Virus record (IMG/VR): IMGVR_UViG_3300028965_000026
From: a virus
Taxonomy: Duplodnaviria > Heunggongvirae > Uroviricota > Caudoviricetes
Strand: one strand, 5' to 3'
Length of the DNA stretch: 26,162 nucleotides
The notes below the pieces were generated by a model. The model was not told the DNA's origin and searched no databases. It was given only the letters and a program-made list of their open reading frames with translations. Positions 4,923 through 5,110 of the stretch are shown piece by piece (position 1 is the first letter of the stretch; every line of letters begins with the position of its first letter). Both the position numbers and the translations under genes were made by a program.

Positions 4923-5110
4923 CTTTCCAGAACCTGAAACACCGGGGGTCATAGCACGCGCAAAAACGCGCTATTTATGAAAATTTTCAGGGAACCATGT
5001 CCGGTTTCCCTACTGGTTAACTATATGAAAAATATAAAAACAAGCTTTTTGTGAACCGGACATGTACAAAAAACGAACATGCAAACCGGACATGGGCGGT
5101 TTTCTGATTG
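4923..5110. promoter_or_regulatory. cos region (lambda-like cosQ/cosN/cosB) immediately upstream of the terminase small-subunit gene
   Basis: TTTTACGGGTCCTTTCC ... GCGCTATTTATGAAAATTTTC aligns by eye with my recollection of the lambda genome ends (ACGGGTCCTTTCCGG ... cohesive end ... CGCTATTTATGAAAATTTTCCGG). Followed by three copies of AACCGGACATG and an AT-rich spacer, in the position of lambda cosB. Confidence 0.6.
5006..5104. repeat. Three 11-bp repeats AACCGGACATG (5006-5016 inverted; 5064-5074 and 5094-5104 direct): candidate terminase small-subunit binding sites (cosB R-elements)
   Basis: Exact 11-mer present three times within 100 bp between the cosN-like sequence and the Nu1-like start. 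The first copy is in opposite orientation, and an AT-rich tract (5031-5050) lies between copies 1 and 2. Confidence 0.5.

What the first reader, a model, noticed from the sequence alone, without database searches (positions are those of the whole stretch)
4923..5110. Lambda-like cos site with three AACCGGACATG repeats in the cosB position
TTTTACGGGTCCTTTCC ... GCGCTATTTATGAAAATTTTC is clearly related to the lambda cosQ/cosN neighbourhood as I recall it, but the bases at the position of the lambda cohesive end differ (about 4957-4972, CCGGGGGTCATAGCACGCGC), suggesting a different overhang. Downstream are three exact copies of AACCGGACATG (one inverted, two direct, 30-bp spacing) with an AT-rich bendable spacer. 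This is the expected layout for binding sites of the small terminase subunit, which here has a diverged N-terminal DNA-binding domain.
Basis: partly seen in the sequence, partly recalled or inferred. Interest (0 to 1): 0.5.

Follow-up and report, generated by a model that had tools for sequence, protein, structure and literature searches.

The report
Lambda-type cos site, new specificity
This is the DNA-packaging (cos) site of an E. coli prophage, built like phage lambda's but with different binding sites for its own small terminase and an unusual predicted sticky end; it is an ordinary kind of element in an uncharacterised variant form.

Summary
AACCGGACATG occurs exactly three times (4996-5006 inverted, 5054-5064 and 5084-5094 direct, 30 bp apart). 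It lies just downstream of lambda-like cosQ (GGGTCCT, 4918-4924) and I2 (4969-4988), and just upstream of Nu1-like and gpA-like terminase genes.

Across about 100 related cos sites, the repeat sequence tracks the small-terminase recognition helix perfectly. Within this subfamily, Arg20 to Asn/Asp covaries with G to T in the repeat (CATGTCC to CATTTCC). The geometry matches lambda: R3 at +50 to +60, an I1-like AT-rich block, and R2 58 bp from R3. R1 differs, being direct with R2 rather than inverted.

Aligned on I2, lambda's overhang GGGCGGCGACCT corresponds to 4947-4958, GGTCATAGCACG. This differs at 7 of 12 positions, three of them in the left half, and GG replaces CG before the nick.

This cosN class occurs in 82 of 5,426 complete E. 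coli genomes. Its flanks are invariant and its centre is highly polymorphic. In this lambda-like sample it always travels with one large-terminase clade, across five different cosB types.

The cosB type itself is common (1,230 genomes) and occurs in the deposited PhiR12 phages. No virion ends were available. Verdict: a new variant of a known kind, of moderate interest.

The parts
4918..4924 (+). cosQ heptamer GGGTCCT, the packaging-termination signal in lambda. It ends 22 nt before predicted position 1, against 23 nt in lambda.
   Evidence: Invariant in about 100 aligned lambda-like cos sites. Its role is taken from lambda (PMC4669245).
4936..4946 (+). Class-specific left flank of cosN, GAAACACCGGG. 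Positions -2 and -1 are GG instead of lambda's CG.
   Evidence: Nearly invariant (one G/A polymorphism at -2 and a single C-to-T change) in 40 of the 42 sites of this cosN class; L099 carries a different left flank and L086 a GGGC overhang. It differs from lambda's CAGGTTACG.
4947..4958 (+). Predicted 12-nt 5' cohesive end, GGTCATAGCACG (cosN core). Nicks are predicted before 4947 on the top strand and after 4958 on the bottom strand.
   Evidence: These are the same alignment columns as lambda GGGCGGCGACCT when anchored on I2. Intermediates L086, L069 and L088, and the chimera L099, fix the register. Twofold symmetry (GTC/GAC) is centred between positions 6 and 7. The cut sites are inferred, not measured.
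4959..4968 (+). Class-specific right flank, CGCAAAAACG, where lambda has CGCGGGTTTT.
   Evidence: Invariant in the 42 sites of the class, which were themselves selected by this flank. It is also kept in vB_EcoM-705R4.
4969..4988 (+). I2 element, CGCTATTTATGAAAATTTTC, matching lambda bp 23-42.
   Evidence: Identical to lambda over 20 nt. It is conserved across all cosB and cosN types.
4996..5006 (+). R3-equivalent small-terminase site, CATGTCCGGTT, at bp +50 to +60 from predicted position 1. Its constant core CCGGTT lies at +55 to +60.
   Evidence: Invariant in 22 distinct cosB sequences of this type. It covaries with the TerS helix. Lambda R3 is at bp 50-65 with contacts at 55-63 (PMC9026076).
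5018..5043 (-). I1-equivalent: an IHF-like core TTTCATATAGTTA (5018-5030, - strand) followed by A-tracts. This is the predicted bend between R3 and R2.
   Evidence: The block is nearly invariant within this cosB type and is positionally homologous to lambda TAACTTAATG. The consensus match has 2 mismatches, the same as lambda I1 by my own hand alignment, and is not significant on its own.
5054..5064 (+). R2-equivalent, AACCGGACATG, inverted relative to R3. Centre-to-centre distance is 58 bp, against about 57 bp in lambda.
5071..5081 (+). Degenerate copy, AAACGAACATG (9 of 11). It may be a weak extra half-site or a chance match.
   Evidence: Only the ACAT core is kept in most relatives.
5084..5094 (+). 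R1-equivalent, AACCGGACATG. It is direct with R2, starting 30 bp after it, whereas lambda and phage 21 R1 are inverted relative to R2.
   Evidence: It is present in only some relatives (window, L183, L177) and absent in L179, L181 and L185-L187. This fits an accessory role like that of lambda R1.
5139..5648 (+). Small terminase (TerS), 169 aa with a GTG start. The N-terminus carries an HTH (predicted helices at residues 4-10 and 15-22; recognition helix DRQLRRLQ). The C-terminal part is Nu1-like.
   Evidence: Pfam PF07471 matches residues 49-150 only. PHROG_57 matches the full length. Identity to lambda Nu1 is 46% over residues 73-164 only.
5620..7536 (+). Large terminase (TerL), 638 aa, gpA-like with ATPase and nuclease domains. 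It is the presumed cosN nickase.
   Evidence: Pfam PF05876 and PF20454. About 64% identical to the lambda-type gpA proteins of the sample, and at least 92.5% identical to every TerL linked to this cosN class.

Best explanation
Window 4918-5094 is a complete lambda-architecture cohesive-end site (cosQ, cosN, I2, cosB) of an E. coli prophage that has lambda-like head genes and a P2-like contractile tail.

Inferred mechanism, by homology with lambda:
1. Dimers of the adjacent Nu1-family small terminase bind the inverted pair R3 (4996-5006) and R2 (5054-5064) through an N-terminal helix-turn-helix.
2. An IHF-type bend in the AT-rich I1 block brings R3 and R2 together. R1 (5084-5094) acts as an accessory site.
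3. This anchors the gpA-family large terminase on cosN, about 50 bp to the left.
4. The large terminase makes staggered nicks that leave a 12-nt 5' overhang, predicted to be GGTCATAGCACG (4947-4958).

What is shown: the anatomy, the homology, the covariation between protein and site, and the population pattern. What is inferred: binding, bending, the nick positions, and whether this particular prophage is active.

The cosB and small-terminase specificity differs from the three characterised ones (lambda, 21, N15). The cosN belongs to a class that departs from lambda in the left half of the overhang and at the -2 flank base.
For: Anatomy:
- cosQ GGGTCCT and the 20-nt I2 are identical to lambda, and total length is similar. 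TerS starts at +193 here and at +191 in lambda.
- Downstream genes are Phage_Nu1, then GpA_ATPase plus GpA_nuclease, then W, portal, protease, D and E.

Sites and protein:
- In about 80 loci the R3 type and the TerS recognition helix associate without exception. Five types were seen: lambda, 21, AGATCCGTTC, CATGTCCGGTT and CACTTCCGGTT.
- Inside the MATQxEVAxHL subfamily, helix RQLRRLQK goes with (C/G)ATGTCCGGTT in E. coli, Enterobacter and Salmonella.
- Helices RQLRNLQK, RRLRDLQK and RWLRDLQK go with CA(T/C)TTCCGGTT.

Footprint: the three 11-mers are invariant in 22 distinct cosB sequences of this type, while the spacers vary.

Geometry: R3 lies at +50 to +60 and the R3-R2 distance is 58 bp, as in lambda.

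Functionality of the cosB type:
- It is found in 1,230 of 5,426 complete E. coli genomes.
- It occurs in PhiR12 phages deposited with laboratory hosts K-12 and C, there combined with the lambda cosN.

cosN register:
- Anchoring on I2 places lambda's overhang on 4947-4958.
- Intermediates share the flanks but carry GGGC overhangs (L086, L069, L088).
- L099 carries GGTCTGGGGACG after a canonical CACG flank.
- The symmetry mates at positions 3 and 10 changed together, from G/C to T/A.

Other: no promoter-like site lies in cosB.
Against: - There is no physical evidence. No deposited phage record or contig was found that ends at this cosN.
- No cultured phage with this cosN class was found. vB_EcoM-705R4 is cited in a study of phages located in clinical E. 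coli genomes, so its record may be a prophage prediction.
- The overhang departs from features reported as conserved in lambda-like phages, namely the first 4 bp and the flanking CG (PMC4669245; PMC9303873). Nicking could therefore be shifted or inefficient.
- A register 2 bp to the left (CG|GGGGTCATAGCA|CG) restores the CG flanks and cannot be excluded.
- The IHF match is weak, with 2 mismatches, and is not above chance by itself.
- The wHTH fold of the N-terminal domain is only weakly supported. Model pLDDT is about 80 there and all Foldseek hits have E above 0.6.
- The exact combination of this cosN with this cosB occurs in only 2 complete genomes.
Confidence: 0.8

Rival explanations
1. The architecture is as described, but the nicks are not at the lambda-homologous positions. 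One possibility is a register 2 bp to the left, giving GGGGTCATAGCA flanked by CG on both sides. Another is an overhang of a different length.
For: - In the I2-anchored register, positions -2 and -1 read GG (or AG in some alleles) instead of the CG reported as highly conserved.
- The -2 register restores CG on both sides in every allele of the class, because the right flank reads CGCG.
- cosQ lies 1 bp closer to cosN than in lambda.
Against: - The cosN-to-R3 spacing is critical in lambda. It is preserved only in the I2-anchored register.
- For the common allele GGTCTGGGGACG, the I2-anchored register gives 5 twofold-symmetric pairs and the shifted one gives 2, by my own hand count over the overhang and flanking pairs.
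- L099, L069 and L088 show canonical CG|GG junctions at the I2-anchored position.
Confidence: 0.2
2. This is a relic cos. The prophage is defective, or its cosN has drifted out of function, so the conserved look reflects recent ancestry rather than present use.
For: - Many E. coli lambdoid prophages are cryptic. One relative (UMNF18) has a deleted and frameshifted TerS and TerL next to the same cosN.
- The cosN departs from reported rules.
- No cultured representative of this cosN class was found.
Against: - TerS, TerL, W, portal, protease, D, E, and the tail and lysis genes are annotated as intact in the identical genome.
- The class occurs in 82 genomes, mostly with full-length terminase genes.
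- Its flanks are invariant while the neighbouring DNA is mosaic. That pattern indicates purifying selection on the flanks.
Confidence: 0.1
3. The three 11-mers are operators for some other DNA-binding protein, such as a late-gene regulator, and not terminase sites.
For: Inverted and direct repeats upstream of an operon are typical of operators.
Against: - No promoter-like site is present.
- Position and spacing copy lambda R3, I1, R2 and R1.
- The repeats change together with the TerS recognition helix in every cassette examined, whatever lies upstream.
Confidence: 0.03

Closest known systems
Phage lambda cos (cosQ-cosN-I2-cosB with R3, I1, R2, R1; gpNu1 and gpA terminase)
   Same: - The order and spacing of all subsites match.
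- cosQ GGGTCCT and the 20-nt I2 are identical.
- R3 lies at about +50 to +60, with R2 inverted about 58 bp away across an AT-rich I1-like block.
- Nu1-family and gpA-family genes follow directly.
   Different: - The R sequence is CATGTCCGGTT, against lambda's CGTTTCCtTTCT type.
- The first 48 or so TerS residues are not alignable to gpNu1 by Pfam or BLASTP.
- R1 is direct with R2, 30 bp away, instead of inverted.
- The overhang differs at 7 of 12 positions, including 3, 5 and 6.
- Position -2 is G rather than C, and cosQ lies 1 bp closer to cosN.
- The cosN-I2 spacer is an A-tract instead of a T-tract.
Phage 21 cos and gp1 (second characterised packaging specificity)
   Same: Phage 21 has the same complex cosB architecture. 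Its R core CATGTCGG resembles CATGTCCGG superficially.
   Different: - The phage 21-type TerS helix is DPRTIERWQSQG and belongs to the lambda-like MxVNKK N-terminal family. The window protein belongs to the MATQxEVAxHL family.
- R1 in the 21 type has the lambda orientation.
N15 and Monarch cos (third characterised specificity)
   Same: - These are the precedent for a lambda-like cos with a different TerS DNA-binding specificity, and for variation in the overhang (PMC4669245).
- A Monarch-like cosB (GGTGGTTGTTGTT) occurs with the same cosN class and the same TerL clade as the window.
   Different: - N15 differs from lambda only at overhang positions 9 and 12, in the right half.
- Its R sequence and TerS helix are unrelated to the window's.
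Escherichia phages PhiR12_1 to _5 (PV340549-PV340554) and prophages in 1,230 complete E. coli genomes
   Same: They have the same cosB type, with R3, R2 and R1 identical, and the same TerS subfamily. Nucleotide identity is 87.6% from I2 into TerS.
   Different: They carry the canonical lambda cosN, GGGCGGCGACCT, and a different TerL clade (about 77-82% identity for sampled loci with this cosB type and lambda cosN). No publication on their packaging was found.
SerU-LTIIb prophage (KU052038) and 82 E. coli genomes with the GGTC-class cosN
   Same: They share the same cosQ-cosN-I2 framework with invariant flanks.
   Different: They carry other overhang alleles, such as GGTCTGGGGACG, and other cosB and TerS cassettes.

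Membership tests
lambda-like cos site | cosQ heptamer GGGTCCT about 23 nt upstream of the left nick | tested here: met
   GGGTCCT lies at 4918-4924, 22 nt before predicted position 1.
lambda-like cos site | [quoted passage not shown] | tested here: not met
   GGTCATAGCACG matches 5 of 12 positions, its first four bases are GGTC, its left flank is GG, and its right flank CG is kept. The criteria come from PMC4669245 and, as cited there, PMC9303873.
lambda-like cos site | Partial twofold rotational symmetry of cosN about the centre of the overhang | tested here: met
   Pairs 1, 4, 5 and 7 out from the centre (positions 6/7, 3/10, 2/11 and -1/13) are symmetric in the window allele. Pair 3 (positions 4/9) is also symmetric in most alleles, giving GTC-N4-GAC. 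This is my own hand count on the sequences.
lambda-like cos site | I2 element between cosN and cosB | tested here: met
   The 20 nt at 4969-4988 are identical to lambda bp 23-42.
lambda-like cos site | Complex cosB: R3 at about bp 50-65, an IHF site, an inverted R2, and R1 | tested here: met
   R3 lies at +50 to +60, the I1-like block at 5018-5043, R2 at +108 to +118 and R1 at +138 to +148. R1 orientation differs from lambda. The IHF motif alone is not significant.
lambda-like cos site | Adjacent Nu1-family TerS and gpA-family TerL | tested here: met
   PF07471 (E 8e-20), PF05876 and PF20454.
lambda-like cos site | Virion DNA with 12-nt 5' cohesive ends generated at this site | not testable with these tools
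   No virion reads were available, and no record or contig was found to end at the site.
gpNu1-type TerS | [quoted passage not shown] | tested here: inconclusive
   The AF2 model has helices at 4-10 and 15-22, a strand and a helix at 38-55, with pLDDT about 80. The best Foldseek PDB hits are wHTH proteins (RdfS excisionase, MerR family, BldC, 6hn7), but E is at least 0.66. The PDB sequence search gave no relevant hit. The PHROG_57 profile covers the N-terminus at E 1.5e-9.
lambda packaging specificity | R sites of the lambda type with recognition helix SIRTIQNWQEQ | tested here: not met
   Both the R sequence and the helix differ.
phage 21 packaging specificity | R sites CATGTCGGnaC with helix DPRTIERWQSQ | tested here: not met
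N15/Monarch packaging specificity | R3 GAGGTTGTTGTT with the N15-type TerS helix | tested here: not met
   The window has neither. That type was seen in L190-L192.

The most novel reading that the evidence does not exclude
The GGTC-class cosN may be more than a tolerated variant. It may be a distinct nicking substrate co-adapted with its own large-terminase clade, with recognition shifted to the invariant flanks GAAACACCGRG and CGCAAAAACGCGC.

On this reading, the central 8 nt of the sticky end is kept polymorphic. At least 10 alleles exist, and they are shuffled among phages whose TerL genes differ by less than 1%. The sticky-end sequence would then act as a compatibility label among the many lambdoid prophages sharing an E. 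coli cell.

This would be the first natural cosN specificity difference among lambda-like phages.
Probability: 0.15. Interest if true: 0.6.

Novelty: new variant of a known kind. Interest (0 to 1): 0.38.

Why it matters
Only three packaging specificities (lambda, 21, N15) have been characterised among lambda-like phages, and the field has noted that surprisingly little diversity is known (PMC4669245). Four points follow from this locus.

- **New specificities.** The locus and its relatives define at least two more predicted specificities, CATGTCCGGTT and CA(T/C)TTCCGGTT. They come with a simple natural covariation: helix residue 20 Arg versus Asn/Asp against G versus T in the site. A single-residue, single-base swap would test it directly.
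- **Prevalence.** The CATGTCCGGTT type occurs in about a quarter of complete E. coli genomes. It therefore bears on which co-resident prophages, satellites and cosmid-like elements can be cross-packaged.
- **cosN rule.** The cosN class contradicts the generalisation that the left half of the overhang and the flanking CG are fixed.
- **Linkage.** In the lambda-like loci sampled, the class stays linked to one TerL clade across swapped cosB cassettes. This gives a natural system for asking how gpA-type nucleases read cosN.

None of this changes the picture of how cos phages package DNA.

Tried and rejected
- **PDB sequence search with TerS**: only spurious hits.
- **Foldseek of the AF2 model**: wHTH proteins rank first but none is significant. 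I treat this as inconclusive.
- **Genome-contig scan** with ATGTCCGGTT-N35-60-AACCGGACAT: 39 hits, all in unrelated taxa. The pattern is palindromic, and there is only one genome per species. Uninformative.
- **Full-text search for the overhang alleles and the 11-mer**: only unrelated primer matches.
- **Searches for PhiR12 and 705R4 papers**: nothing on packaging.
- **Vahanian et al. 2017** (Virology 509:140), the published survey of natural cosN: not held. I cannot say whether the GGTC class is listed there.
- **TerL residues 555-561 (EEEARQI) as the cosN determinant.** They separate the classes 28/28 against 0/35. However, vB_EcoM-705R4 has a GGTC-class cosN with a TerL only 44% identical that reads STTEAKQL there. 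I reject them as a determinant and keep them only as a clade marker.
- **The 9-nt inverted repeat CGCAAAAAC (4959-4967) / GTTTTTGCG (5121-5129) bracketing cosB**. One arm belongs to the cosN class and the other to the TerS leader, and they assort independently. I treat this as chance.
- **The idea that this TerS is K-12 Qin NohA**, as some database names suggest. K-12 Qin cos and nohA are of the lambda type.
- **IHF consensus scan**: the I1 match is no better than background. The case for I1 rests on positional homology and conservation only.
- **Contigs ending at cos** in the IMG/VR and metagenome hits: none found.

Full report
**1. The observation**

- AACCGGACATG occurs exactly at 4996-5006 (minus strand), 5054-5064 and 5084-5094 (plus strand).
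- Allowing one mismatch, the 26-kb window has four matches against 0.53 expected, and no shuffle out of 100 reaches four.
- A degenerate copy lies at 5071-5081.
- The lambda-like strings are at 4912-4928 (TTTTACGGGTCCTTTCC) and 4969-4988 (CGCTATTTATGAAAATTTTC).

**2. Context**

- Downstream lie a 169-aa ORF (5139-5648) and a 638-aa ORF (5620-7536), followed by W and portal genes.
- Pfam assigns these two ORFs to Phage_Nu1 and to GpA_ATPase plus GpA_nuclease.
- The window is 100% identical to prophages in E. coli CEA224S and 52F4.
- In CEA224S the prophage has Rac-like and lambdoid early genes, lysis genes and lambda-like head genes (Nu1, A, W, B, C, D, E, FI). It also has a P2-like contractile tail. 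All are annotated as intact.
- Immediately upstream of cos is a K88-type fimbrial-subunit gene (3971-4795), followed by a terminator-like hairpin (4823-4850).

**3. Comparison with lambda and about 100 relatives**

I fetched lambda's two ends. I also scanned IMG/VR for GAAACACCGGGGGTC and for the I2 core TATTTATGAAAATTTT. This gave about 100 lambda-like cos sites.

With I2 as anchor, cosQ (GGGTCCT) and I2 are invariant. Lambda's overhang GGGCGGCGACCT falls on window 4947-4958, which reads GGTCATAGCACG.

Natural sites form a series at the same columns:
- GGGCGGCGACCT in the majority, then GGGCGGCGTCCT/G, GGGCGGAAGGCG, GGGCGGCAGCGG, GGGCGGTAGACG and GGGCGGCAGACG.
- A second group with T or A at position 3: GGTCGGTAGACG, GGTCGTAGGACG, GGTCATGGGACG, GGTCTGGGGACG, GGTCATAGCACG, GGTCGGTGGACG, GGTCTGTAGACG, GGTACGCGTACG, GGACGGCAGACG and GGTAGCCATACG.

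Several observations support the register:
- L086 has the window's flanks with a GGGC overhang.
- L099 has GGTCTGGGGACG after a canonical CACG flank.
- L069 and L088 join CACC-type left flanks to CG|GGGC.
- Symmetry mates 3 and 10 are G and C in lambda and T and A here, so the dyad centre is unchanged.

A register two bases to the left would restore CG on both sides, and I cannot exclude it. It would break the cosN-R3 spacing, which is critical in lambda, and it gives fewer symmetric pairs.

**4. The repeats as small-terminase sites**

Across about 80 loci with a readable TerS, the R3 sequence and the predicted recognition helix associate without exception:

| R3 sequence | TerS recognition helix |
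|---|---|
| lambda TTTCCGTTCTTC | SIRTIQNWQEQG |
| 21-type CATGTCGGTAC | DPRTIERWQSQG |
| AGATCCGTTCTTC | DVRTITGWQSQG |
| CATGTCCGGTT (window) | LTDRQLRRLQKLPGAP |
| CACTTCCGGTT | ITERWLRDLQKHPGAP |

I then searched for homologues of the window TerS and aligned them. I fetched the upstream DNA of eight divergent members from Klebsiella, Salmonella, Enterobacter and uncultured sources.
- Helix RQLRRLQK always goes with (C/G)ATGTCCGGTT.
- Helices RQLRNLQK, RRLRDLQK and RWLRDLQK go with CA(T/C)TTCCGGTT.
- vB_EcoM-705R4 (RRLRDLAK) has TATTTCCGGTT.

So residue 20, Arg versus Asn/Asp, tracks G versus T at the fourth base of the 11-mer. The constant CCGGTT sits at bp +55 to +60, inside the bp 55-63 stretch that lambda TerS contacts in R3.

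In 22 distinct cosB sequences of the window type, the three 11-mers are invariant while the spacers vary.

R3 and R2 are inverted and 58 bp apart. They flank a conserved TAAC-N4-(A/T)TG(A/T) block that matches the position of lambda I1. In several relatives its complement fits the IHF consensus WATCAANNNNTTR perfectly, by hand comparison of the sequences. In the window and in lambda it has two mismatches, by hand alignment. The match is not above background on its own.

R1 is present only in some members and is always direct with R2. In lambda and 21, R1 is inverted relative to R2.

**5. The small terminase**

- Pfam Nu1 covers only residues 49-150.
- BLASTP against lambda Nu1 aligns only residues 73-164, at 46% identity.
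- The broader PHROG_57 profile covers the N-terminus.
- An AlphaFold model built on 25 sequences gives two short helices (4-10, 15-22), a strand and a long helix, with pLDDT about 80 in that part.
- The top Foldseek hits in the PDB are wHTH proteins of the MerR and excisionase type, plus a chain from the PICI/TerS study (6hn7). None is significant.

The diverged N-terminal DNA-binding domain is therefore confirmed at the sequence level. The fold assignment remains inconclusive.

**6. How common, and is it functional?**

- The cosB-TerS part, from about 4969 rightwards, matches 1,230 of 5,426 complete E. coli genomes at 80-100%.
- It also matches five PhiR12 phages deposited with K-12 MG1655 or C as hosts. 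There it sits next to the canonical lambda cosN. This argues that the cosB type supports viable phages.
- The cosQ-cosN-I2 segment of the window matches only 82 genomes.
- No deposited phage genome carries it, apart from the partial SerU-LTIIb record and vB_EcoM-705R4. The latter may be a prophage prediction, since it is cited in a study of phages located in clinical E. coli genomes.

**7. cosN class and the large terminase**

- In 63 loci with a full TerL, all 28 with a non-GGGC overhang plus the CGCAAAAAC flank have a TerL at least 92.5% identical to the window's. None of the other 35 does; their identity ranges from 63% to 91%.
- In complete E. coli genomes, 83 records carry the cosN class, and 82 carry TerL nuclease-domain DNA at 95% identity or better.
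- Spot checks at about 88% TerL identity have GGGC overhangs. Spot checks at 95-98% have GGTC overhangs.
- The association holds across five different cosB and TerS-N-terminus cassettes: AGATCC, 21-like, the window type, CACTTCC and a Monarch/N15-like GGTGGTTGTTGTT. It also holds across unrelated DNA left of cosQ.

This fits co-adaptation of TerL with cosN. It would also follow if only the cassette is exchanged by double crossover at I2 and within TerS.

The clade-specific TerL residues (555-561, EEEARQI) are not determinants. 705R4 has a GGTC-class cosN with a TerL only 44% identical that lacks them.

Within the class, the flanks differ at about 7% of sites per pair and the central eight overhang bases at about 38%. 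Pairs whose TerL genes differ by less than 1% can differ at 4-6 of those 8 bases. Each allele recurs in several backgrounds, so this looks like shuffling of old alleles rather than local hypermutation.

**8. Relation to what is known**

Feiss and colleagues document three packaging specificities (lambda, 21, N15). They note that overhang positions 7-12 vary naturally, whereas cosQ, the left half and the CG flanks are maintained (PMC4669245). A later paper summarises their 2017 survey in the same way. I could not read that survey.

The window fits the family in architecture and gene content. It fails the strict cosN sequence criteria and belongs to none of the three specificities.

Full-text searches for the alleles and the 11-mer found nothing relevant. 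K-12 Qin cos and nohA, whose name is attached to some homologues, are of the lambda type.

**9. Verdict**

- The element is a lambda-architecture cos site with an uncharacterised but common cosB and TerS specificity. Its cosN belongs to a rarer, unusual class.
- The predicted overhang is GGTCATAGCACG (4947-4958), with moderate confidence in the exact register.
- It is a new variant of a known kind, of moderate interest to packaging specialists. It is readily testable by end mapping and by a one-residue, one-base specificity swap.

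Noticed in passing
window 3971-4795 (+), hairpin 4823-4850: A lone K88-type fimbrial subunit gene (PF02432, E 2.7e-58, with a signal peptide) sits between the lysis genes and cos. A terminator-like hairpin follows it. It looks like a moron in the slot where LT-II toxin genes sit in SerU-LTIIb.
   Followed up: partly
L176 (CEA224S), window 9000-26162: The prophage combines lambda-like head genes (Nu1 to FI) with a P2-like contractile tail (baseplate V/W/J/I, sheath, tube, X, D) and Rac-like early genes. 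A KwaB-like (Kiwa) gene and a hok/gef toxin gene lie upstream of the window.
   Followed up: no
L047, L055, L098, L101, L150 (IMG/VR): These loci have the window-type cosB with all three 11-mers and a lambda cosN, but a variant cosQ context and no TerS gene after it. In L055 the cos lies among a Pox_D5-like primase, SSB, gpE-like capsid and gpD-like decoration genes and a portal fragment. This may be a satellite or a rearranged prophage that could be packaged by phages of this specificity.
   Followed up: partly
L166 and L168 (metagenome contigs): The overhang allele GGTACGCGTACG contains a perfect 10-bp palindrome, GTACGCGTAC. Such ends could anneal between molecules in either orientation.
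   Followed up: no
L099 (IMG/VR): This cos is chimeric. Its left flank is of the GCCACG type, its overhang is GGTCTGGGGACG, and its right flank is CGCAAAAACGCGC. That implies recombination inside or next to cosN.
   Followed up: partly
L200 = vB_EcoM-705R4 (ON470624) 3000-3110: A GGTC-class cosN (GGTCGGTAGACG) with similar flanks is joined to a simple, N15-like cosB. It has a single TATTTCCGGTT site, no I2, and TerS starting at about +78. Its TerL is only 44% identical to the window's.
   Followed up: partly
L198 (E. coli UMNF18) 2920-3521: The same cosN allele as the window sits next to a deletion that fuses a TerS fragment to the C-terminal end of TerL. This copy of the class is defective.
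   Followed up: no
window 4959-4968 versus lambda bp 13-22: The spacer between the overhang and I2 is CGCAAAAACG here and CGCGGGTTTT in lambda. An A-tract replaces a T-tract, as if the segment were inverted. Any effect on intrinsic bending next to the nick site is unknown.
   Followed up: no
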